Positions 16,603 through 25,724 of a DNA stretch of 64,000 nucleotides are shown here, one piece after another (positions within the stretch are counted from its first letter, which is position 1; every line of letters starts with the position of its first letter). The notes under the pieces were generated by a model. It saw nothing but the letters and a program-made list of their open reading frames with translations. It did not search any database and was not told where the DNA came from. Origin of the DNA: Patescibacteria group bacterium (GTDB taxonomy: Bacteria > Patescibacteriota > Patescibacteriia > UBA9934); NCBI GenBank assembly GCA_049296775.1, contig JBAQTB010000003.1, positions 12,766 to 76,765 on the forward strand, written 5' to 3'. Made by a program: the position numbers and the translations under genes.

Positions 16603-17661
16603 CTAAGATAAAATTTTGAACTTGGCTTTTTGATTTTTGCGGATGCGGATACGTTCTTCTAGAGGCAAGGCAACGATAGCCTGACAGGCTTCAGAGCAGG
16701 TGCCGAGGGTTTTTTGTTTACAGTCTGCACACTGGATAAATAGAGCGTGACAGAGATCGCTCTTGCAGTTGTCGTAGCTGTCGGCGGGCTGCTGGCAGGT
16801 GTGGCATTTTCCTAGAATGTCTGGAGTGACCGCTTCCGCCATGCGGCCGTCGAACACGAAATTTTTGCCTTTGAATTTTGACTCAAGACCAGCTTGTTCA
16901 ACTTCATGTTTGTAGTTTATGATGCCGCCGTATAGCTGACTGACATCTTTAAATCCGTTGTGTTTTAAGAAGGCACTAGCTTTTTCACAGCGAATTCCAC
17001 CTGTGCAGTAAAGTAAAACTTTCTCGTCTTTTTTGTCGTTGAGAAGTTGGATAACTTCTTGAAGCTCTTCACCAAAAGTTTGTGAGCTAGGTGTCACAGC
17101 ATTTTCAAAATGACCAATGTCACTCTCATATTTATTCCGCATGTCTACCACGAGTGCGCCCTCTTCCATGGCAGCATTAAAAGCTTGGGCGTCTAAATGA
17201 TTACCAACGTTGTTGAGGTCGTAACTACCTGCCGGAAGATTATCAGCTACGATCTGTTTTTTGACCTTGATGATCAGTTTCCAGAACGAGACAGTGGGTT
17301 CTTCTAGGGCGTATTTAAATTCAACGCCCGAAAAATACGGTGAAGCATCAATCAGCTGACGAAAATTCTCAAGCTCTGGTTTGGGCACACTAATCTGCGC
17401 ATTAATGCCTTCTGTTGATAAATAAATTCGGCCGAGCACGTTGAGCTTTTCAAATGCAATAAACAGCTCGTCTCTTAGAGCGTCGGGTTCGGTAATGGTC
17501 ACGTAGCGGTAAAACGAAATCGTCTGCCGGGCAAAGGTCTCGGCAGCCAGCTTGGCTAGGGCTTGGGTTTGATTAAGTTTATTGGCTAATTGACGCATAA
17601 AATCTTCCAAATTAAACACTAAATTGGGCAGGCTTGCAAGTCTTGTGTTAATGTTAGGCAT
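16603..17661 (-). CDS. trhO: Rhodanese-domain tRNA uridine(34) hydroxylase (YceA/TrhO, UPF0176 family)
   Basis: UPF0176 N-domain plus rhodanese active-site loop CTGGIRCEKA, then a Cys-rich C-terminal zinc-binding tail. Confidence 0.75.
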   Translation of the reverse strand: MPNINTRLASLPNLVFNLEDFMRQLANKLNQTQALAKLAAETFARQTISFYRYVTITEPDALRDELFIAFEKLNVLGRIYLSTEGINAQISVPKPELENFRQLIDASPYFSGVEFKYALEEPTVSFWKLIIKVKKQIVADNLPAGSYDLNNVGNHLDAQAFNAAMEEGALVVDMRNKYESDIGHFENAVTPSSQTFGEELQEVIQLLNDKKDEKVLLYCTGGIRCEKASAFLKHNGFKDVSQLYGGIINYKHEVEQAGLESKFKGKNFVFDGRMAEAVTPDILGKCHTCQQPADSYDNCKSDLCHALFIQCADCKQKTLGTCSEACQAIVALPLEERIRIRKNQKAKFKILS

Positions 17662-17784
17662 TGAATAATGACCACCCTGATTCTTAGCCTACGCTCAGGA
17701 TCGGATTGGAAAGGGTTGGGTTGGTCCACAGGATTGGGAGGTGTTACTAATTCTTTAGAACGCGCCTCAGGGTAATTTAGTTCT

Positions 17785-18612
17785 ATGATCGGTGTTTTTG
17801 ATTCAGGTTTTGGCGGACTCGTGATTCTCCGCGAGCTCGTCAAACAGCTACCAGAATATTCTTACGTTTACCTGGGTGACAATGCCCGAGCCCCGTACGG
17901 ACCCCGCACGCCAGATGAGATTTACGAGTTTACCCTTCAAGCAGTCGAGAAGTTATTCGCAGAAGGTTGTGAGCTTGTCTTGCTCGCGTGTAACACGGCC
18001 TCGGCCAATGCTTTACGCCGGATCCAACAGAATGATTTAGTGAGATTTCCGGGTAAGAAGGTGCTGGGAATTCTGGTGCCGACTATTGAGCAGATTACCG
18101 GTTTGCCCTGGAGCGCCTTGCACCCGTATCCGCAAGCCATGCGGATTGGCGTGTTTGCCACGGCAGCGACGGTGAATTCGCATGCGTATCGGACAGAGAT
18201 TTTGCGACGCAACCCTCAAGCGGAAGTGGTTGAGATCGCCTGTCCGGACTTGGCGACCATGATTGAGTCTGCCGTTGATGAGGCTGAGCTCCGTGCTTAC
18301 GTCGCAACTTGCGTCGACAAGCTTCGGTCCGAGCTCCCAGAACCCGACGCCGTTTTGCTCGGTTGCACGCATTACCCCTTGGTGCTCGAGTACTTTGTGG
18401 AGACCTTGCCCGACGTGCCGGTTTTCGATCAAGGACAAATTACCGCTGATGCCTTGAAAGAATATTTACGTACTCATCCAGAACTCGATGCGCGTTTAGC
18501 TAAAACGGGCGACTGGAGATTTTTGACTACGGGTGAAGGTGCTAAGATAGCGCCGTTAGCGTCGGCGTTCTTTGGCCTGCCTATAGACTGCGAGGAGGTC
18601 GTGCTATCATAA
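17785..18612 (+). CDS. murI: Glutamate racemase
   Basis: IGVFDSGFGGL and LACNTAS motifs; full length. Confidence 0.9.
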   Translation: MIGVFDSGFGGLVILRELVKQLPEYSYVYLGDNARAPYGPRTPDEIYEFTLQAVEKLFAEGCELVLLACNTASANALRRIQQNDLVRFPGKKVLGILVPTIEQITGLPWSALHPYPQAMRIGVFATAATVNSHAYRTEILRRNPQAEVVEIACPDLATMIESAVDEAELRAYVATCVDKLRSELPEPDAVLLGCTHYPLVLEYFVETLPDVPVFDQGQITADALKEYLRTHPELDARLAKTGDWRFLTTGEGAKIAPLASAFFGLPIDCEEVVLS

Positions 18613-18692
18613 CGCCCGTCGAGACTTGCCTGAGGATTGTGGCAAACAACCCCTCACAACTTTAATCTTTAATCTTGTTTCTTAATCACGCT

Positions 18693-19040
18693 ATGAAAGA
18701 CCTGACAGAAGTTTATAATCGTTTAAAGATGAAAAAGGCTGAGCGTAAGGATTTACGAACATCTATTCAGGATGAGCTCAAGAATGATAAGCGTTATCAG
18801 GATCTGATCGAGAAAATTAATGAGCTCAAAATTGAGAAGAAGTCGATTGAAAATGAGATCATGTCCCGTGAATTGGACCGGGCTAAGCTTGAGGAATTGA
18901 ACTTGGATATTAAAACCGACGTAGAAATGTTAACCGATATCACACTCAACATGTTTTTAGCGCAAGAGCCGGTAGAAATTGTGGATGAGGTCAATAATAA
19001 ATGGACGCCAGTCTTTGCCGTGCGTTTCCGTAAGGGCTAA
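18693..19040 (+). CDS. Hypothetical coiled-coil protein
   Basis: K/E-rich heptad-like sequence. The ORF-track start 18675 is TTG; the first ATG is 18693. Confidence 0.45.
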   Translation: MKDLTEVYNRLKMKKAERKDLRTSIQDELKNDKRYQDLIEKINELKIEKKSIENEIMSRELDRAKLEELNLDIKTDVEMLTDITLNMFLAQEPVEIVDEVNNKWTPVFAVRFRKG

Positions 19041-19076: not shown

Positions 19077-19111
19077 AAGTGACAACTGGGGGCTATACCC
19101 AGTTGTCACTT
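19077..19111. promoter_or_regulatory. Perfect 14-bp inverted repeat, candidate operator upstream of secD
   Basis: aagtgacaactggg-ggctata-cccagttgtcactt. No U-tract follows, so it is probably not a terminator. Confidence 0.35.
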
Positions 19112-19148: not shown

Positions 19149-21188
19149 ATGAACAAATACGCCGCTCGAGAAGGTTTTTCTTATAAGCAGGCTAGATTGG
19201 TAGCTCTGGGGCTGTTATTGGCCTTAGCGATAGGCGTGGGCATCGCTTATCCCAAACCTTGGAATCAGGCCATGGGTGCCATGGAAGATAAGTTAGGCTT
19301 CCATTTGCCGTATTTGCCGGAATCAGAGTTTAGATTGGGTCTCGACCTACGGGGCGGGGCGCATTTGGTATATGAGGCTGACATGTCGGCCATTCCAGAC
19401 GTAGATAAGACTGAGGCCTTGTCTGGTGTGCGTGACGTGGTGGAGCGCCGGGTGAATGCGTTTGGTGTGTCTGAGCCGGTGGTGCAGACCACGGTGAGCG
19501 GTGGAAGCTATCGCGTGATCGTGGATTTGCCAGGCGTGACTGACGTTGCTGACGCTGTGCGTGAGATTGGCGAGACGCCAGTTTTGACTTTCCGTTTACC
19601 GGACGAAGAGATTGAAGTTGAACCGACTGCTGAACAGGAGCAGCAGATCGTGGAGGCACAGGTCATTGAGCGTGAGGCGGCCGTAGCGGTGTTAGACCGC
19701 GCTTTGGACGGTGAGGATTTTGGTGCCTTGGCAGCGGAGCTATCTATTGACGCAAGTACTAGAGACGCTGAGGGTTATGTGGGTTTCATTAGTTCTGAGG
19801 ATGAAGAGTACGGTGGTTTGGCTGAGCAGATTGCGGATGACCGCTTGCGCGTGGGCGTGATTAACGGCTTGTATGAAGGCACGTCACGTATTCACATTGT
19901 TAAGTACTTATCTAGAAAGGTAGAAACTGAGCCGAGAATTTCACATATTTTGGTGTGTTATGACGGCGCTTTGAGCTGTACGCAATCACGCACTAAGGAA
20001 GAAGCCTTGACGATGATTGAGGGACTTAAGGATCAGGCCACACGCTCCAACTTTGCTGAGTTAGCTACAGAATCTTCAGATGACACAGGGAGCGGTCAGG
20101 CTGGTGGAGATTTGGGCTTCTTGAAGCCAGGTGACACCGTAGCTCCTTTTGATGAAGCCGCTTTTGCTTTATCGAATAACCGAATCTCTGAGGTGATCGA
20201 AACAGATTTTGGTTACCATATCCTATTCCGCCCAGAGTCACGGTCTGTGACTTATTACGAAATTGCCCAGGTAGAAATGCCATGGACAACCTTGTCTGAT
20301 ATTTTCGTGATTGATCCTTGGATTAACACTGAACTGTCAGGTAAGCATGTACAGCACGCGAGTGTCGGTTTTGATCAGAACAGTGGTGCGCCGTACGTGA
20401 TTTTGGACTTCAACACTGAGGGTGCTGATTTATTTACCAAAATGACGGAAGAAAACGTGGGTAAAGTGATCGGGATTTTCTTGGATGGTGAAGCCATTAC
20501 TACGCCAGTCGTGCAGCAGGTCATTTACGGCGGGCAAGCGACGATTACCGGAAACTTCTCTCTGACTGAGGCTAAGCTCTTGGCGCAGCGTTTGAATGCT
20601 GGCGCCTTGCCAGTGCCAATTGAAGTTGTTAGCCAACAGACGATCGGTCCAGCTTTAGGTAAAGTGTCACTAGATAAGAGTATTCAGGCTGGTTTGGTAG
20701 GTTTTGCTCTGATCGCGTTGTACATTTTAGTGTATTACCGCTTGGCAGGAGCTTTGGCAGTGGTGGCGTTAGCTTTTTACGCCGTGACTAACCTGGCTTT
20801 ATACAAGTTGCTGGGTGTGACGATTACATTATCCGGAATTGCCGGTTTTGTGTTGTCGCTCGGTATTGCGGTTGATGCCAACGTGCTGATTTTCGAGCGC
20901 TTAAAAGAAGAATTGAGAAGTGGCAGGGATTTGCCAACAGCGTGTGACGAAGCCTTCAGACGCGCTTGGCCATCTATTCGTGACGGTAACTTGACGACCT
21001 TGATTGCGACCATGGTGTTGTACTGGATCGGTGAAGGTTTTATTCGTGGATTTGCTTTGACCTTGACGATCGGTGTGTTGATGTCGATGGTGAGCGCAAT
21101 GGTGGTCACTAAGGTGCTCTTGAAATTGGTCGTACGTTATAAGGCGGTACGCAAACCGGCATTTTTCTTAGGTCTTGAACGTAAGTAG
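19149..21188 (+). CDS. secD: SecD with two parvulin-type (PpiC) PPIase modules inserted in the periplasmic domain
   Basis: TM1 then SecD base LGLDLRGGAHLVYEA. Insert module 1 GEDFGALAAELSIDASTRDAEGYVGFI...TSRIHIVK (degenerate parvulin). Module 2 ISHILVCYDG...GGDLGFLKPGDTVAPFDEAAFAL...DFGYHILF (canonical PpiC). Then SecD P1/C-terminal TMs VVALAFYAVTN..., GIAVDANVLIFER. Confidence 0.8.
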   Translation: MNKYAAREGFSYKQARLVALGLLLALAIGVGIAYPKPWNQAMGAMEDKLGFHLPYLPESEFRLGLDLRGGAHLVYEADMSAIPDVDKTEALSGVRDVVERRVNAFGVSEPVVQTTVSGGSYRVIVDLPGVTDVADAVREIGETPVLTFRLPDEEIEVEPTAEQEQQIVEAQVIEREAAVAVLDRALDGEDFGALAAELSIDASTRDAEGYVGFISSEDEEYGGLAEQIADDRLRVGVINGLYEGTSRIHIVKYLSRKVETEPRISHILVCYDGALSCTQSRTKEEALTMIEGLKDQATRSNFAELATESSDDTGSGQAGGDLGFLKPGDTVAPFDEAAFALSNNRISEVIETDFGYHILFRPESRSVTYYEIAQVEMPWTTLSDIFVIDPWINTELSGKHVQHASVGFDQNSGAPYVILDFNTEGADLFTKMTEENVGKVIGIFLDGEAITTPVVQQVIYGGQATITGNFSLTEAKLLAQRLNAGALPVPIEVVSQQTIGPALGKVSLDKSIQAGLVGFALIALYILVYYRLAGALAVVALAFYAVTNLALYKLLGVTITLSGIAGFVLSLGIAVDANVLIFERLKEELRSGRDLPTACDEAFRRAWPSIRDGNLTTLIATMVLYWIGEGFIRGFALTLTIGVLMSMVSAMVVTKVLLKLVVRYKAVRKPAFFLGLERK

Positions 21189-21189
21189 T

Positions 21190-22089
21190 ATGAAGTCTTT
21201 GAATGTCATCGGTTACACCCGGTTCTGGCTAGGTCTATCGGCCTTTTTGGTCACGACGTCGTTGTTGCTCTTGATCGTGCTCAAACCTAACTTTGGTATC
21301 GATTTTACGGGGGGAAGTTTGCTGGAGATTCAAGTTGAGGGCACTGACAGCCAAAGTTTGCGCTCTGAACTAGTGGCCGCTGGTAAGGAGGCGGTAGTGC
21401 AGTCAGCTGAAGGTAATAGCTACTTTGTCAGACTTGGTCCGATTAGTGAGGAAGAGCATCAGGCGATCTTGGAGATTTTGCGCGTTCAACATCCGGACTT
21501 GGTCGAGAGTAAGTTTGATTCCGTGGGACCGGTCATTGGTGATGAGTTGAAAAAGGATACGGCTATTGCGGTGATCGTCTTGTTGGTTTTGATTGCGGTG
21601 TATATTGCCTGGGCTTTCCGCAAGGTGTCTCTGCCAGTGCCGTCTTGGAAGTATGGTCTGGTAACTTTGTTGGCAGCTTTTCATGACGTGGTGATTCCGC
21701 TTGGTGTCTTCGCAGTGCTTGGACGCACGAGCGGTTATCAGATCGATATCGCTTTTGTCGCCGCCATGCTCACCATTCTTGGTTACTCAATTAACGACAC
21801 CATCGTGGTGCTTGACCGTACGCGTGAAAATTTGGCGCGTTATCGTCACTCAAATAAGACTTTTGGCGAGATCGTTAATCAAAGTGTAGTCGAAACCCTT
21901 GGTCGTTCCTTGAATACTACCTTGACCACGTTATTACCGTTATTGGCGATTTTGTTTGTTGGTGGTGCGAGTACCCGGTCATTTGTGCTAGCGTTGATCA
22001 TAGGTATTGTGTCCGGAGCTTATTCGTCAATCTTCTTTGCGAGTCCGGTTTTGGTAGCTTGGGATACTTGGTCACGTCGGAGCAGATAA
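21190..22089 (+). CDS. secF: Protein-export membrane protein SecF
   Basis: GIDFTGGSLLEIQ, SecD/F TM core GYSINDTIVVLDR. Immediately after secD. Confidence 0.9.
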   Translation: MKSLNVIGYTRFWLGLSAFLVTTSLLLLIVLKPNFGIDFTGGSLLEIQVEGTDSQSLRSELVAAGKEAVVQSAEGNSYFVRLGPISEEEHQAILEILRVQHPDLVESKFDSVGPVIGDELKKDTAIAVIVLLVLIAVYIAWAFRKVSLPVPSWKYGLVTLLAAFHDVVIPLGVFAVLGRTSGYQIDIAFVAAMLTILGYSINDTIVVLDRTRENLARYRHSNKTFGEIVNQSVVETLGRSLNTTLTTLLPLLAILFVGGASTRSFVLALIIGIVSGAYSSIFFASPVLVAWDTWSRRSR

Positions 22090-22133
22090 GTCGTTTAGGT
22101 GGGGTAGGAGTCATGCTATAATGCGCCTATCCT

Positions 22134-23687
22134 ATGCTAGGAATCGTTCTCAACCTTCCACCTTACGTAGAAAACTACCTTGCGACTACCCCAATTGAGT
22201 CCATGGCGGCTCAGGCGATTTTGTTGTTTGGTTGGTTTCCCATCTTTGGAGTGCTCGTGTGGGGTATGGCCCACGTGTGGTTGGATTTTAAACAAGATAA
22301 ATATAGCGCTGCCCAGAAATACGTCATGCTAGACGTGCGTGTTCCGCAAACGGCGATTCAAACGCCTAAGGGCATGGATATCTTTTTCGCTAATTTGTCT
22401 GGGTCAAGGAGCAGTATTACATGGCGTGAGAAGTGGTTACTCGGCAAGGAACAGCCAGTATTTTCTTTTGAAATTGCAAGTAATGAGGGGAGGATTCAAT
22501 TTATTATTCGCTGCACGGATAAGTATCGTGATTTAGTTGAGGCAGATATTTACGCGCAGTATCCAGAGGCGCAAATTACGGAAATTGCGGATTACACAGG
22601 GGTCATTCCTAAGGCTTATCCTGATGAAGAATGGGAGGCTTTTGGAGCTGAGTTTGTCTTGAAGAACGCCAATCATTTCCCGATCCGGACGTTCATGGAT
22701 TTTGAACACCAGGGGGAGAAAGAGGGGAGATTTAAGGATCCCTTGCTACCAATTTTGGAATTGATGGGCAAGATGCGCCCAGGCGAGCACTTCTGGATCC
22801 AAATGTTAATTCAGGCTCCGGACAGTCAAGATTGGACTAAAGATGGAGCTAAGTTTGCTTCCACGATCATGGGTAAAGAGGAGAAGAAAGTTAAGAGCAT
22901 GACACAAGAGCTAGGCGAGATGGTTGGATCTTTACCGATGGATGTGTTAGGACAAATGACGGGTGCCTCTTCCCCTAATGCTAAGCCAGAAAAGAAGAGC
23001 GATGATTTTAAGATGTTTAAGTTGACGCCGGCTGAGAAGTTGCAGATTGATTCGGTGACGGAGAAGATCTCTAAGTTGGGCTGGAAAACTAAGATCAGAA
23101 TCGTGTACGCGGCTAAGAAATCAACCTTCCGTAAGGGTATGATGGCTTCTGGTATGAAGGGCATCATGGCTTCATACACTAATAGCATCGTGAATTCCTT
23201 TAGCATGCACGGGCCGTCAATTCCAAAAGACGATTATTTTTGGATGGCTTGGCAGTATCCAGGTAAACAGACTAAACTCGCTAAACGCTTTGCTGGCCGC
23301 TCATTTGGACCTGGGTCTACGGCCTTCATTCTCAATACTGAAGAATTGGCGACTTTTTGGCACTTCCCGGCTGCAGATGCACGGACTCCGGTGCTAGCAG
23401 CCATGGGTGCACGTCGAGCAGAGGCTCCAGCTGATTTGTACTTTGCGGATGATTTAGACGGTGATGGTATTCCGGATTGGAAGCAGAAGCATGGCAAGAG
23501 TTTGCCGGGAGTTGGTTTGGCAGCTGAGGCTGAGTCTCCAGTGCGTTTGCCGACTCCGTTATCACCTACAGGTGCGGCGGGTGCTATGCCGCAACCGGGC
23601 AAACCGGCACCTTTGCCACCTGGACTTGATCTGAGTGATGAGCCGCTTGACCCTAGGAATATCGCCCCAGGAAATTTACCTGTTTAA
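22134..23687 (+). CDS. Hypothetical membrane-anchored protein, upstream partner of the T4CP-like ATPase
   Basis: 517 aa; N-terminal TM helices (AILLFGWFPIFGVLVWGMAHVWL), large soluble domain, Pro/Gly/Ala-rich C-terminus. The stop is 21 nt before the next start. Confidence 0.5.
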   Translation: MLGIVLNLPPYVENYLATTPIESMAAQAILLFGWFPIFGVLVWGMAHVWLDFKQDKYSAAQKYVMLDVRVPQTAIQTPKGMDIFFANLSGSRSSITWREKWLLGKEQPVFSFEIASNEGRIQFIIRCTDKYRDLVEADIYAQYPEAQITEIADYTGVIPKAYPDEEWEAFGAEFVLKNANHFPIRTFMDFEHQGEKEGRFKDPLLPILELMGKMRPGEHFWIQMLIQAPDSQDWTKDGAKFASTIMGKEEKKVKSMTQELGEMVGSLPMDVLGQMTGASSPNAKPEKKSDDFKMFKLTPAEKLQIDSVTEKISKLGWKTKIRIVYAAKKSTFRKGMMASGMKGIMASYTNSIVNSFSMHGPSIPKDDYFWMAWQYPGKQTKLAKRFAGRSFGPGSTAFILNTEELATFWHFPAADARTPVLAAMGARRAEAPADLYFADDLDGDGIPDWKQKHGKSLPGVGLAAEAESPVRLPTPLSPTGAAGAMPQPGKPAPLPPGLDLSDEPLDPRNIAPGNLPV

Positions 23688-23708
23688 CGTTGTTTGCACT
23701 CTGCTTGT

Positions 23709-25724
23709 ATGGCGAACCGTTATCCTCACGATCACGAGCAAGATGTTGTCTATTTTGCTAAGACTAACTTCCGCAATCAATTGCGCAAGTTTGGCATTAA
23801 GACAGATGACCGACGCCGTCATGTGTACGTGGTGGGTAAGACCGGTATGGGTAAGACCACTTTGCTTGAGAACATGATCTTGTCAGATATTTACGCCGGG
23901 CACGGTTGTTGCTATGTAGATCCGCACGGGGATACGGTACAGAAAATTATCGATTACATTCCGTCATGGCGCATTAATGACGTGGTGTATTTCGATCCTG
24001 CTGACGTGGCGCATCCAATCGGATTTAACATTTTGGAGTCTGTGGATCCGACCATGAAACACTTGGTGGCGTCGGCTCTCATGTCCGTGTTTAAGAAGAT
24101 TTGGGAGAATGTATGGTCAGCGCGCATGGAGTACATTCTCAACAACACGATTTTGGCGCTTCTGGATACCCCGGGCACCACGCTCTTGGGTGTGAATCGC
24201 ATGTTGTCAGATAAGGAATATCGTTTAGAGATCGTCAAGAATATTCAAGATCCGATTGTTAAGCAGTTTTGGGTGACAGAGTTTGCGGCGTATGACGCTA
24301 AGTTTGCCTCTGAAGCCGTGGCTCCGATCCAGAACAAGATCGGTCAGTTTTTGTCTTCCTCGATTATTCGCAATATTGTGGCTCAGGCTAAGTCGTCCAT
24401 CAATATTCGTGAGATGATGGATGATCAGAAGATTTTTATCATCAACTTATCTAAAGGTAAGATTGGGGAAGATGCCATGCGCTTGCTCGGCGGCATGTTG
24501 ATCACCAAGATGCAGGTAGCTGCCATGGAGCGCGTGAATGTTCCGGAAGAGACTCGTGAAGATTTTTATTTGTACGTTGATGAATTCCAGAACTTTGCGG
24601 TGGAATCATTCGCTGGCATTTTGTCTGAGGCGCGTAAGTACCGGCTGAATTTGATCATGGCGCACCAGTACATTACTCAATTATCTGAAGAGGTGAGAGA
24701 CGCGGTGTTTGGTAACGTGGGTACCATGATTACGTTTAGAGTTGGCTCGCCGGATGCGGTTTTCATGGAGAATGAGTTCATGCCCAGGTTTACGCCAGAG
24801 GATATTATCAATTTGCCTAAGGCGGGTATTTATTTGAAGTTGATGATTGATGGCGTAGCGAGTCAGCCGTTTTCTGCGGTGACTTTGCCGCCAATTGCGC
24901 AACGCACTGAGAGTATGACGCGCGTAGTTGAGCAGTCGCGTGAACGTTACGGTGGTAACCGCAGCATCATTGAAGAACGTGTGGCAGTTTGGAGCGGTTT
25001 TGGCGCTGATGCCGATGTCGAGAAGATGATTGCGGGTGTAACTCAGGCTAAGAAAGATGCCAAGAAGGCTAGATTTAGTCACGATTATACGTGTACGCGT
25101 TGCGGCAAGGTTTTCTCATTGCCAGTTGAATTAGACCGGAGCCGGCCGATTTATTGTGAAGATTGTAAGCCGATTATTGACGCTGAACGACAAAAGTCCA
25201 AAGACAAAGCTGGTCAACGGACTAAAATCTCAGATGGGCAAGTGATCACTAAACCGATCATTGGATCAGTGTCGCTCGATACTTTAGTGCCGCCTAAGCG
25301 TCTGGAGCCAGCGGTGGTTGCGCCAGAGAAGCACGAGCATATCTTAACGCCGACGGTGCCTGTGCCGCCAGCTGTTGCGGTTAAACCAGTCGCGGTTGCG
25401 GCGGTCGCAGAAACGCCTCGAGCCGCTCCGGCTCCCGTGACGCCTTCGGTAAGTAGCCGACCGTCCATGCCAGCACCACGTGCGGTAACAGTCGCGCCAG
25501 CTCGGCCTGTGAGCACGCAGACAGGAACAGCTGACCCGGATAAGAAGCGCAAGCGGAATCGCAAACGCAAGCCTAGAGTTATAGCAGATGTAGCTGTCAC
25601 GCCACCATTAGCGCCGTTGTCTGTGCCTAGGCTAGTGCCACCAACGGCGATTAAAACCACGGCGGCCATTGAGCCAGCGCTGAAGCCTGTCATGCCCGGC
25701 GAAAGAATTAGCTTTGATGATTAG
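23709..25724 (+). CDS. TraD/TraG/VirD4-family (type IV coupling protein-like) P-loop ATPase, soluble, with C-terminal zinc ribbon and Pro/Ala-rich basic tail
   Basis: Walker A VVGKTGMGKTTL, Walker B YLYVDEFQNFA, T4CP-like core (LIMAHQYITQL). CTRCGKVF-x16-YCEDCKP zinc ribbon. A 190-aa P/A/V-rich tail carries KKRKRNRKRKPR. No N-terminal TM helices. The ORF-track start 23694 is TTG; the ATG is at 23709. Confidence 0.7.
   Translation: MANRYPHDHEQDVVYFAKTNFRNQLRKFGIKTDDRRRHVYVVGKTGMGKTTLLENMILSDIYAGHGCCYVDPHGDTVQKIIDYIPSWRINDVVYFDPADVAHPIGFNILESVDPTMKHLVASALMSVFKKIWENVWSARMEYILNNTILALLDTPGTTLLGVNRMLSDKEYRLEIVKNIQDPIVKQFWVTEFAAYDAKFASEAVAPIQNKIGQFLSSSIIRNIVAQAKSSINIREMMDDQKIFIINLSKGKIGEDAMRLLGGMLITKMQVAAMERVNVPEETREDFYLYVDEFQNFAVESFAGILSEARKYRLNLIMAHQYITQLSEEVRDAVFGNVGTMITFRVGSPDAVFMENEFMPRFTPEDIINLPKAGIYLKLMIDGVASQPFSAVTLPPIAQRTESMTRVVEQSRERYGGNRSIIEERVAVWSGFGADADVEKMIAGVTQAKKDAKKARFSHDYTCTRCGKVFSLPVELDRSRPIYCEDCKPIIDAERQKSKDKAGQRTKISDGQVITKPIIGSVSLDTLVPPKRLEPAVVAPEKHEHILTPTVPVPPAVAVKPVAVAAVAETPRAAPAPVTPSVSSRPSMPAPRAVTVAPARPVSTQTGTADPDKKRKRNRKRKPRVIADVAVTPPLAPLSVPRLVPPTAIKTTAAIEPALKPVMPGERISFDD

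What the first reader, a model, noticed from the sequence alone, without database searches (positions are those of the whole stretch)
19149..21188. SecD carries two inserted parvulin-type peptidyl-prolyl isomerase modules in its periplasmic domain
Seen in sequence: the TM1 and P1-base motif LGLDLRGGAHLVYEA are followed by roughly 200 aa not found in canonical SecD. The first part is a degenerate parvulin-like module (GEDFGALAAELSIDASTRD...GYVGFI...RIHIVK). The second is a canonical PpiC/parvulin domain (ISHILVCYDG...GGDLGFLKPGDTVAPFDEAAFAL...DFGYHILF). The SecD head and C-terminal TM bundle then resume and secF follows. By established knowledge, PrsA in Firmicutes and PpiD/SurA in Proteobacteria are separate parvulin-type foldases that act on Sec substrates at the trans side. 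A covalent SecD-foldase fusion would place folding catalysis directly on the translocon-associated motor. I cannot tell from sequence alone whether this architecture is already catalogued for this lineage.
Basis: partly seen in the sequence, partly recalled or inferred. Interest (0 to 1): 0.6.

Follow-up and report, generated by a model that had tools for sequence, protein, structure and literature searches.

The report
SecD with built-in parvulin foldase
In this uncultured Patescibacteria (CPR) genome, the membrane motor protein SecD, which helps pull secreted proteins out of the export channel, carries a pair of prolyl-isomerase (parvulin) domains on its outer face, one apparently active and one degenerate; thousands of related proteins share this, so a folding helper that other bacteria keep as a separate protein is here built into the export machine.

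Summary
The ORF at 19149-21188 encodes a 679-aa SecD. About 240 aa lie between the first part of its external P1 base and the P1 head; Thermus SecDF has about 39 aa there. Module 2 (residues 262-362) is a canonical parvulin: Pfam Rotamase_3 E 5e-29, His-Asp-Thr-His tetrad essentially invariant, about 2 Å fit to Pin1 and PrsA domains. Module 1 (160-258) is a degenerate parvulin relative that lacks its own His strand. The insert alone models as one compact unit (pLDDT 90). The motor looks intact and secF follows.

The architecture is not a one-off. All 120 closest homologues have it, as do 91 of the 150 best 50%-identity cluster representatives and 34 GTDB species loci, all Patescibacteria-type MAGs. 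Variants include SecDF fusions and a large sister class whose single parvulin is circularly permuted.

Sources name these proteins only "SecD", and I found no paper describing the fusion. The closest precedents are non-covalent: SurA docking on the SecDF P1 head, and the Mycoplasma PrsA-like dome on SecDF.

Best reading: a translocon-tethered foldase that acts on chains as they emerge. The anatomy is firm; the activity and any coupling to head motion are inferred. I rate it a new variant of known kinds, of moderately high interest.

The parts
19149..21188 (+). secD gene (679 aa from the ATG; an upstream in-frame TTG at 19110 is probably not used)
   Evidence: ORF list. TIGR01129 secD scores 365 bits against a cut-off of 244. 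A 100% identical 679-aa database protein is named SecD.
19197..19250 (+). TM1 (residues 17-34), preceded by a basic N-terminus (K3, R7, K13, R16); this places the following P1 domain outside the cell
   Evidence: Sequence; AF2 helix 2-33; standard SecD topology is established knowledge.
19329..19604 (+). N-terminal part of the P1 base (residues 61-152), with the GG motif and the SecD_1st domain
   Evidence: Pfam Sec_GG at 61-81 and SecD_1st at 94-152; aligns to Thermus SecDF 25-120.
19626..19922 (+). Module 1 (residues 160-258): degenerate parvulin-like module with helices, beta2, alpha4, beta3 and beta4 ('RIHIVK') but no His strand of its own; predicted non-catalytic
   Evidence: hhalign against module 2: 95.8%, E 7.9e-9. 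Pfam Rotamase 22.7 bits against 21.7. Aligns with the SurA P1 region. pLDDT 86-95. By the hhalign register only D201 and H249 match tetrad positions.
19932..20234 (+). Module 2 (residues 262-362): canonical PpiC/parvulin domain with tetrad H266, D312, T352 and H357
   Evidence: Rotamase_3 E 4.9e-29 and Rotamase E 2.4e-24. PDB parvulins at E about 1e-13. Tetrad conserved in 45/45, 41/45 (D or E), 45/45 (T or S) and 45/45. Foldseek to Pin1, PrsA and SurA-P2 PPIase domains: rmsd 2-3 Å, TM 0.78-0.84.
19956..19979 (+). Cys270...Cys277 pair (C-x6-C) in the beta1-alpha1 loop of module 2; probably a disulfide
   Evidence: The two Cys are both present in 143 domain matches and singly present in 1. The extracytoplasmic location fits a disulfide. 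The bond itself is inferred.
20235..20327 (+). Return strand and linker (residues 363-393: 'ESRSVTYYEIAQVEMPWTT...DPW'); proposed to supply the missing edge strand of module 1 before the chain enters the P1 head
   Evidence: AF2 DSSP shows two long continuous strands, 247-269 and 355-378, in both models. Y370, E371, M377, T380 and T381 are (nearly) invariant. P0127 has module 1 plus this strand without module 2. The strand pairing is inferred; I could not read coordinates.
20328..20618 (+). P1 head subdomain (residues 394-490), the mobile substrate-binding part of SecD
   Evidence: Pfam SecDF_P1_head E 3.2e-30; aligns from Thermus SecDF residue 160.
20631..21158 (+). TM2-TM6 bundle (residues 495-670), with D576 equivalent to Thermus D340 of the proton pathway
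   Evidence: Pfam SecD_SecF_C; residue-level alignment; D576 invariant.
21175..22089 (+). secF (starts at TTG 21175, overlapping secD by 14 nt, or more likely at ATG 21190, 1 nt after the secD stop); keeps the D637 and R671 equivalents
   Evidence: TIGR00966 SecF 263.7 bits against 160; alignment to Thermus SecDF 443-725; sequence.

Best explanation
This is a functional SecD, paired with SecF, whose extracytoplasmic P1 domain carries a compact two-module parvulin unit at the connection from the P1 base to the mobile P1 head.

Module 2 is a complete, conventional parvulin and is probably an active, non-phospho-specific prolyl isomerase of the PrsA/Par10 type. Module 1 is a degenerate, probably non-catalytic parvulin relative. 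It lacks its own His strand and appears to be completed by the strand that returns from module 2, so module 2 is topologically nested in module 1.

Proposed mechanism:
1. Unfolded chains leave SecYEG and are captured by the SecD P1 head.
2. They meet a foldase/chaperone unit held permanently beside the head.
3. That unit catalyses prolyl isomerisation and shields the chain.

This is the job done by separate proteins elsewhere: PrsA in Firmicutes, PpiD and SurA in Proteobacteria, and the Mdp444 'dome' in Mycoplasma.

Shown: domain identities, insertion site, conservation of active-site residues, spread across lineages, intact proton-pathway residues.
Inferred: PPIase activity, action on nascent Sec substrates, the strand pairing between the modules, and any coupling to proton-driven head movement.
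For: Domain calls and E-values. Homology between the two modules. Confident AF2 models: the insert has pLDDT 86-95 in the full model, and pLDDT 90.4 with pTM 0.74 when modelled alone. Fold matches to SecDF, SurA, Pin1 and PrsA. Tetrad H266/D312/T352/H357 and pocket residues L322 and F334 are (near) invariant.

The insertion point is mapped on Thermus SecDF, and D576 aligns with D340. SecF keeps D637 and R671. The insert is constrained: mean pairwise identity 0.54-0.56 against about 0.70 for the SecD core.

The architecture is present in all 120 closest homologues, in 91 of 150 cluster representatives, in 120 of 120 proteins of a sister class, and in 34 GTDB species loci, all Patescibacteria-type. 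A co-varying Cys pair fits an extracytoplasmic location.

Independent precedents for physical association of PPIases with SecDF: SurA binds the holo-translocon, and AlphaFold docks its two parvulin domains on the P1 head (PMC9987972); PrsA-like Mdp444 crosslinks to SecD and forms a dome over SecDF-SecYEG, with its one active PPIC domain touching the emerging substrate.
Against: There are no biochemical data on any member. In SurA, PpiD and PrsA, chaperone function is largely separable from PPIase activity, and some parvulin domains are inactive, so an intact tetrad does not prove that catalysis matters.

Some distant members have a degenerate GGDLG loop (P0155, P0169, P0182, P0205). About 10 of the representatives have Gly at the Asp position.

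The full-length model has pTM 0.43, so the position of the insert relative to the head and membrane is not established.

I could not test whether these genomes lack a separate PrsA-type gene. I only found no other parvulin in this 64-kb window.
Confidence: 0.7

Rival explanations
1. The insert works only as a holdase or docking platform. The parvulin folds bind unfolded chains, or position the P1 head, and prolyl isomerase catalysis is irrelevant or absent, as for the PpiD parvulin domain and SurA P1.
For: Module 1 is clearly degenerate and evolves fast (mean identity 0.21 in the broad set). One related protein, P0127, keeps only the degenerate module. Some distant members have lost the GGDLG loop or the Asp. 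It is established that chaperone activity in SurA, PpiD and PrsA does not require PPIase activity.
Against: Both His residues are invariant, and Asp and Thr nearly so, over 45 close and most distant members. That degree of conservation is hard to explain without catalysis. Module 2 is far better conserved than module 1 (0.39 against 0.21).
Confidence: 0.2
2. The insert has a structural or regulatory role unrelated to substrate folding. Examples would be a spacer or brake that tunes the swing of the P1 head, or a contact to the cell wall, S-layer or host cell surface of an episymbiotic bacterium.
For: The insert sits at the base-to-head connection, where it could affect hinge motion. The P1 region between base and head varies widely in length among SecD proteins (gaps from 3 to 400 aa).
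Against: This would not explain why the inserted fold is always a parvulin with preserved active-site residues, across classes that differ in copy number, permutation and SecD/SecF fusion state.
Confidence: 0.08
3. The fusion is an artefact: a chimeric assembly, or two genes joined by a sequencing or gene-calling error.
For: None beyond the fact that the source is a metagenome-assembled genome.
Against: The parvulins are inserted in frame between two halves of one domain, not appended. The same architecture recurs in hundreds of independent assemblies from NCBI, JGI, ENA and Logan at 33-100% identity. Synteny with secF is conserved.
Confidence: 0.01

Closest known systems
SecDF of Thermus thermophilus / Deinococcus (PDB 3AQP, 5XAP, 5YHF) and bacterial SecD in general
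   Same: TM1, then P1 (base and head), then a five-helix bundle. It has a partner SecF, the proton-pathway Asp and Arg residues are conserved, and these structures are the best fold and sequence matches.
   Different: About 200 extra residues forming two parvulin modules replace the short segment (Thermus 121-159) between the last N-terminal base strand and the head. No solved or described SecD has this.
SurA (E. coli; PDB 1M5Y)
   Same: Tandem parvulin domains, one inactive and one active, acting on Sec substrates on the trans side. It is the only solved protein that aligns across both modules. Its parvulin domains are predicted to dock on the SecDF P1 head (PMC9987972).
   Different: SurA is soluble, and its chaperone core is an N-terminal domain plus a C-terminal tail, which are absent here (NF008038 scores 48 bits against a cut-off of 394). 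The relative orientation of the two modules differs (rmsd about 14 Å). Here module 2 appears nested in module 1.
PrsA (Firmicutes) and the PrsA-like Mdp444/436/489 'dome' of Mycoplasma pneumoniae
   Same: A parvulin foldase at the outer face of the membrane of a single-membrane cell, acting on emerging Sec substrates. The active site is of the PrsA type, with matching loop spacing. In Mycoplasma the foldase is physically assembled with SecDF-SecYEG, with one active PPIC domain among inactive ones.
   Different: Those are separate lipoproteins with SurA-like N and C chaperone domains, associated non-covalently. Here there is no lipobox and no SurA-type helical domain, and the link to SecD is covalent (PrsA NCBIfam models score 46-56 bits against cut-offs of 343-361).
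PpiD/YfgM (E. coli)
   Same: A membrane-anchored parvulin-containing chaperone stationed at the SecYEG exit (PMC9643414, listed).
   Different: PpiD has its own N-terminal anchor, and its parvulin domain is inactive (my own knowledge). It binds SecYEG rather than being part of SecD (NF008054 scores 45 bits against 493).
Single-parvulin SecD of other Patescibacteria (P0135 class: Veblenbacteria, Kerfeldbacteria, Nomurabacteria)
   Same: Same insertion site in SecD and the same active-site motifs.
   Different: There is only one module, and it is circularly permuted. The His strand follows beta4 in 111 of 120 proteins (median gap 16 aa), whereas it precedes the domain in 118 of 120 proteins of the window's class. 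Moving the strand back in silico restores a full-length Pfam match.

Membership tests
SecD (TIGR01129 / Pfam SecD_1st + SecDF_P1_head + SecD_SecF_C) | Profile score above the curated cut-off | tested here: met
   TIGR01129 scores 365.2 bits against 244.4. All three Pfam SecD domains are above their gathering scores.
SecD (TIGR01129 / Pfam SecD_1st + SecDF_P1_head + SecD_SecF_C) | Topology of TM1, large external P1 domain and C-terminal helix bundle, with fold similarity to solved SecDF | tested here: met
   AF2 secondary structure. Foldseek top hits are 5XAP, 5XAN, 5YHF and 3AQP, with E down to 5e-23.
SecD (TIGR01129 / Pfam SecD_1st + SecDF_P1_head + SecD_SecF_C) | Conserved proton-pathway residues (Thermus D340 in SecD; D637 and R671 in SecF) and an adjacent secF | tested here: met
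   D576 aligns with D340. SecF D208 and R243 align with D637 and R671. secF lies directly downstream. That these residues are essential is from my own knowledge of Tsukazaki et al. 2011.
SecD (TIGR01129 / Pfam SecD_1st + SecDF_P1_head + SecD_SecF_C) | PMF-dependent stimulation of protein export | not testable with these tools
   Needs genetics or biochemistry.
Parvulin / PpiC-type PPIase (PF00639, PF13616): module 2 | Profile score above the gathering cut-off | tested here: met
   Rotamase_3 scores 101.7 bits against 22.5; Rotamase scores 86.6 against 21.7.
Parvulin / PpiC-type PPIase (PF00639, PF13616): module 2 | Active-site tetrad His-(Cys/Asp)-Thr-His (Pin1 H59, C113, T152, H157) and the hydrophobic proline pocket | tested here: met
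   H266, D312, T352, H357, L322 and F334 are present and (near) invariant. The Pin1 numbering is from my own knowledge.
Parvulin / PpiC-type PPIase (PF00639, PF13616): module 2 | Parvulin fold (four-stranded sheet with four helices) | tested here: met
   Predicted model against Pin1, PrsA, SurA-P2 and TbPar42 PPIase domains: rmsd 1.7-3.3 Å, TM 0.74-0.84. This is a predicted structure, not a solved one.
Parvulin / PpiC-type PPIase (PF00639, PF13616): module 2 | Measured cis-trans isomerase activity | not testable with these tools
   Needs an enzyme assay.
Parvulin / PpiC-type PPIase: module 1 | Profile score above the gathering cut-off | tested here: inconclusive
   Taken alone, Rotamase scores 22.7 bits against 21.7, and Rotamase_3 scores 21.7 against 22.5. 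Profile positions 1-18 are not matched. hhalign against module 2 gives 95.8%. It is homologous, but marginal as a family member.
Parvulin / PpiC-type PPIase: module 1 | Active-site tetrad | tested here: not met
   There is no His strand. The Thr position is Gly244. Only D201 and H249 are retained, and H249 is lost in distant members. It is predicted to be inactive.
SurA | N-terminal chaperone domain and C-terminal tail flanking two parvulin domains; a soluble periplasmic protein | tested here: not met
   NF008038 scores 48 bits against 394, and only the parvulin region aligns. It works in part like SurA but is not a member.
PrsA | A lipoprotein with a SurA-like N/C domain into which one parvulin is inserted | tested here: not met
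   NF002846 scores 56 bits against 361 and NF002827 scores 46 against 343. Only the parvulin region aligns.

The most novel reading that the evidence does not exclude
The parvulin unit rides on, or next to, the proton-driven P1 head. The F-form/I-form swing of SecDF would then physically present each newly pulled segment to an active prolyl isomerase. If so, this is an energy-coupled, processive 'pull-and-fold' machine on the energy-poor outer side of the membrane. It would have replaced free PrsA-type foldases in a large part of the Candidate Phyla Radiation, having arisen through a circularly permuted parvulin inserted into SecD and later duplicated or nested.
Probability: 0.2. Interest if true: 0.8.

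Novelty: new variant of a known kind. Interest (0 to 1): 0.6.

Why it matters
How chaperones and folding catalysts are recruited to the exit of the Sec channel, where there is no ATP, is an open question. The current evidence is low-resolution or in-cell: SurA with the holo-translocon, PpiD/YfgM with SecYEG, and the Mycoplasma dome.

A natural covalent fusion, conserved across a large bacterial radiation, is 'Rosetta-stone' evidence that a parvulin foldase works directly beside the SecD P1 head. It also offers a stable, stoichiometric object for structural and biochemical study of substrate hand-off.

Two further points follow. Genome-reduced Patescibacteria keep extracytoplasmic folding catalysis, but in a compact form. 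And the related circularly permuted parvulin is, as far as I could find, an undescribed topology for this enzyme family.

On annotation: these proteins are currently named only 'protein translocase subunit SecD', which hides the foldase.

Tried and rejected
- **Assembly or gene-fusion artefact:** rejected, because the same in-frame architecture recurs in hundreds of independent assemblies.
- **Insert is just an expanded P1 head:** rejected by the Pfam, PDB and fold results.
- **Membership of SurA, PrsA or PpiD:** rejected, because only the parvulin region matches and scores are far below the cut-offs.
- **Tandem permuted reading (the His strand at 263-271 belongs structurally to module 1):** considered, because the sister class is permuted and the linker lengths are similar. 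I disfavour it for three reasons. The strand's His co-conserves with H357 rather than with H249. AF2 shows continuous strands rather than a hairpin. Complete PPIase domains superpose over 112-119 ordered columns. It is not formally excluded, because I could not read coordinates.
- **Prefixing the return strand (B2) to module 1:** this did not raise its Pfam score (22.2 against 22.7). B2 therefore has no sequence resemblance to a normal beta1, and its role rests on the model only.
- **Organism names through cluster look-up:** nearly empty.
- **AFDB fold search:** the library was unavailable.
- **Literature:** seven searches found no description of a SecD-parvulin fusion or of a permuted parvulin. 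The library does not cover most subscription journals, so absence is not proof.
- **Promoter/terminator scan around secDF:** nothing above chance.
Full report
**What is in the sequence**

A single ORF runs on the + strand from 19110 (TTG) or 19149 (ATG) to 21188. The ATG form gives 679 aa and is identical to a database protein of that length named 'protein translocase subunit SecD' from a Patescibacteria-group MAG with a 383-kb contig. All residue numbers below use the ATG form.

Pfam places the domains as follows:
- Sec_GG at 61-81
- SecD_1st at 94-152
- Rotamase_3 at 249-358 (E 4.9e-29)
- Rotamase at 266-359 (E 2.4e-24)
- SecDF_P1_head at 394-489 (E 3.2e-30)
- SecD_SecF_C at 491-660

NCBIfam TIGR01129 (secD) scores 365 bits against a cut-off of 244. 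No NCBIfam model describes the combined architecture, and SurA, PrsA and PpiD models match only over the parvulin region, far below their cut-offs. secF follows immediately, at TTG 21175 or more likely ATG 21190, 1 nt after the secD stop.

**Where the insert sits**

Against Thermus thermophilus SecDF (3AQP), residues 54-153 align to 25-120 and residues 396-673 align to 160-437. About 242 residues therefore stand where Thermus has about 39. The site is the connection between the last N-terminal strand of the P1 base and the P1 head.

TM1 (residues 17-34) follows a basic N-terminus, so the P1 domain and the insert lie outside the cytoplasmic membrane, as in all SecD proteins (the topology is established knowledge).

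The host protein looks like a working motor. D576 aligns with Thermus D340. SecF keeps the equivalents of D637 and R671. That these residues are essential is from my own knowledge of the Thermus work.

**Module 2 (residues 262-362)**

This is a canonical parvulin. It matches Cbf2, PrsA, Pin1, Par10-type and SurA-P2 sequences in the PDB at E about 1e-13.

The positions equivalent to the Pin1 tetrad H59, C113, T152 and H157 are H266, D312, T352 and H357. Across 45 family members they are conserved as follows:
- H266: 45 of 45
- D312: 41 of 45 (Asp or Glu)
- T352: 45 of 45 (Thr or Ser)
- H357: 45 of 45

The pocket residues L322 and F334 are also conserved. The Pin1 phosphate-binding basic loop is absent, so I expect a PrsA/Par10-type enzyme that is not phospho-specific (inference).

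In its place is a C-x6-C pair, C270 and C277. Both Cys are present in 143 domain matches and only one is present in a single match. That pattern suggests a disulfide and fits an external location.

In the AF2 model of the insert alone (pLDDT 90.4, pTM 0.74), complete PPIase domains of Pin1, PrsA, SurA-P2 and TbPar42 superpose at 1.7-3.3 Å with TM 0.74-0.84.

**Module 1 (residues 160-258)**

This is a degenerate relative. The evidence for homology:
- hhalign against module 2 gives 95.8% probability and E 7.9e-9 over 77 columns.
- SurA aligns across both of its parvulin domains.
- On its own, the module just passes the Pfam Rotamase threshold, at 22.7 bits against 21.7.

It has no N-terminal His strand. 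The Thr position is Gly. Only D201 and H249 remain of the tetrad, and H249 is lost in distant members. I predict it is non-catalytic.

**Nested, partly permuted topology**

Both AF2 models show two long continuous strands, 247-269 and 355-378. My reading is as follows. Module 1's beta4 runs straight on into module 2's His strand. Module 2's beta4 runs on into a return strand (about 366-378, 'TYYEIAQVEM'). That return strand lies beside module 1's beta4 and takes the place of module 1's missing beta1.

Relatives support this reading:
- A large sister class of SecD proteins (about 575 aa) carries one parvulin at the same site, and it is circularly permuted. The His strand ('SxHILF') follows the 'FGYHII' strand after a median of 16 aa in 111 of 120 proteins. 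In the window's class it precedes the domain in 118 of 120.
- Moving the trailing strand to the front in silico extends the Pfam match to profile position 1 and adds 6-12 bits.
- One protein, P0127, has module 1 plus the return strand and no module 2.

So the window protein can be described as a permuted, degenerate module with a conventional active module nested in its beta4-to-beta1 connection. Equivalently, it is a duplicated permuted unit in which the first His strand now serves the second body.

The alternative pairing, in which that His strand serves module 1, is disfavoured but not excluded. The His co-conserves with H357 rather than with H249, and complete PPIase domains superpose in order on the model. 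I could not read model coordinates.

**How widespread it is**

- All 120 closest homologues (57-100% identity) carry Rotamase plus SecD domains. Named ones are Candidatus Uhrbacteria or 'Patescibacteria group'.
- A search of 1.84 billion cluster representatives with the base-insert-head region found 199 clusters at E<1e-30. Of the best 150, 91 are SecD proteins with a parvulin between base and head, 54 are SecD proteins with no parvulin hit (mostly plain), and 5 are free multi-parvulin proteins.
- Pfam confirmed Rotamase domains at the same site in five classes:
  - about 680 aa, two modules
  - about 575 aa, one module
  - about 780-830 aa, extra sequence with a Rotamase_2-like region
  - 903 aa (P0236), with a larger insert
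  - about 1015-1119 aa, SecD-SecF fusions
- In GTDB species genomes, 34 of the 80 best loci encode such SecD or SecDF proteins. The MAGs are labelled Uhrbacteria, Magasanikbacteria, Falkowbacteria, Parcubacteria, Gracilibacteria, Peribacteria, 'Patescibacteria group', 'bacterium' or 'uncultured Gammaproteobacteria'. The other loci, from Proteobacteria, Bacteroidota and others, have ordinary free parvulin proteins.
- The 'Gammaproteobacteria' labels are probably wrong. Those loci share the secD-secF-orf517-T4CP gene order with loci labelled Uhrbacteria and Patescibacteria.
- The sister class includes Veblenbacteria, Kerfeldbacteria and Nomurabacteria.

**Constraint on the insert**

Within the close family, mean pairwise identity is 0.56 for module 1 and 0.54 for module 2, against 0.68-0.72 for the SecD core. 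Across the broad set, module 2 (0.39) stays much better conserved than module 1 (0.21).

**What it most likely does**

SecDF is thought to use the proton gradient to swing its P1 head and pull substrates out of SecYEG (established knowledge; summarised). Parvulin foldases act on the same substrates on the trans side.

Two recent lines of work show physical association:
- SurA binds the E. coli holo-translocon, and AlphaFold docks its two parvulin domains on the SecDF P1 head (PMC9987972).
- In Mycoplasma pneumoniae, PrsA-like lipoproteins form a dome over SecDF-SecYEG, and the single catalytically intact PPIC domain contacts the emerging chain (bioRxiv 10.1101/2025.04.25.650208 and 10.1101/2024.09.05.611430).

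The Patescibacteria protein looks like the covalent version of this arrangement: one active and one degenerate parvulin, fixed at the base-head junction. I therefore favour a translocon-tethered foldase/chaperone (confidence about 0.7).

The main rival is that the unit is only a holdase or docking platform and catalysis does not matter (about 0.2). A purely structural or regulatory role is less likely (about 0.08), and an artefact is effectively excluded.

Not shown: enzyme activity, substrate contact, the position of the unit relative to the head (full-length pTM is only 0.43), and whether these genomes lack separate PrsA-type genes. No other parvulin is present in this 64-kb window.

**Novelty**

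The parts are known families. The combination can be seen in precomputed Pfam annotations, but every source name I saw is just 'SecD'. No NCBIfam model captures it.

Seven full-text searches found no description of a SecD-parvulin fusion or of a circularly permuted parvulin. The library does not cover most subscription journals.

I rate it a new variant of known kinds. It is not a new kind of system. It is a conserved, informative fusion that bears directly on how folding factors are recruited to the Sec exit.

Noticed in passing
related proteins P0135, P0147, P0148, P0149, P0189 and the 120 hits; locus L049 4001-4423: A large class of Patescibacteria SecD proteins (about 575 aa; Veblenbacteria, Kerfeldbacteria, Nomurabacteria) carries a single, apparently active parvulin that is circularly permuted. 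The His-bearing beta1 strand follows beta4 by about 16 aa in 111 of 120 proteins. I found no description of a permuted parvulin.
   Followed up: partly
window 19956-19979 (Cys270 and Cys277 of SecD): A C-x6-C pair in the beta1-alpha1 loop of the active parvulin is either fully present or fully absent across the family (143 domain matches with both Cys, 1 with one). This suggests a lineage-specific disulfide where Pin1 has its phosphate-binding loop.
   Followed up: partly
window 21175-25724; loci L001-L003, L011, L012, L019, L023, L028: The gene order secD-secF-orf517-T4CP is conserved across many of these genomes. The VirD4-like coupling-protein ATPase (23694-25724; TrwB_AAD_bind, T4SS-DNA_transf, a treble-clef zinc finger and a long Pro/Ala-rich tail) is 66-77% identical between loci, which is more conserved than SecD. 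A 2025 paper reports that most Patescibacteria VirD4 homologues are encoded far from virB4 (PMC12102498). Here one sits next to secDF.
   Followed up: partly
window 22134-23687 (+): A 517-aa ORF with no Pfam hit, a hydrophobic N-terminal region and a Pro-rich C-terminus. It is conserved (32-64% identity) between secF and the T4CP gene in related loci. Function unknown.
   Followed up: partly
window 18675-19040 (+) and 19080-19108: A 121-aa charged ORF with no Pfam hit lies upstream of secD. It is conserved in L001 (61%) and L002 (38%), has no hydrophobic segment and so is not YajC-like. It is followed by a perfect 11-bp inverted repeat (TGACAACTGGG...CCCAGTTGTCA) about 40 nt before the secD start, with no T-run after it.
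   Followed up: no
whole window 1-64000: GC skew is positive in all 32 consecutive 2-kb windows (0.03 to 0.29), and the cumulative skew rises monotonically. The whole 64 kb lies on one replichore with a strong strand-composition bias, as reported for another CPR genome (PMC7143001, title only).
   Followed up: no
loci L002, L004, L010-L012, L022, L024, L025, L049: GTDB species-representative MAGs titled 'uncultured Gammaproteobacteria bacterium' (TPA assemblies) encode the Patescibacteria-type SecD-parvulin protein. Where the contig reaches far enough (L002, L011, L012) they also show the same secDF-orf517-T4CP synteny. The organism labels look unreliable.
   Followed up: partly
related proteins P0151, P0160, P0161, P0166, P0171, P0183, P0236, P0204; loci L029, L054 (Peribacteria): Longer SecD or SecDF variants (about 780-1119 aa) have a further 100-180 aa between the base and the active parvulin (partly Rotamase_2-like) and about 60 extra aa before the head. 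These larger inserts were not analysed.
   Followed up: no
window 16603-18612: The upstream neighbours are a UPF0176/rhodanese-family protein on the minus strand (16603-17661) and a glutamate/aspartate racemase (17785-18612). They are ordinary housekeeping genes, and the same two genes flank secD in L001.
   Followed up: partly
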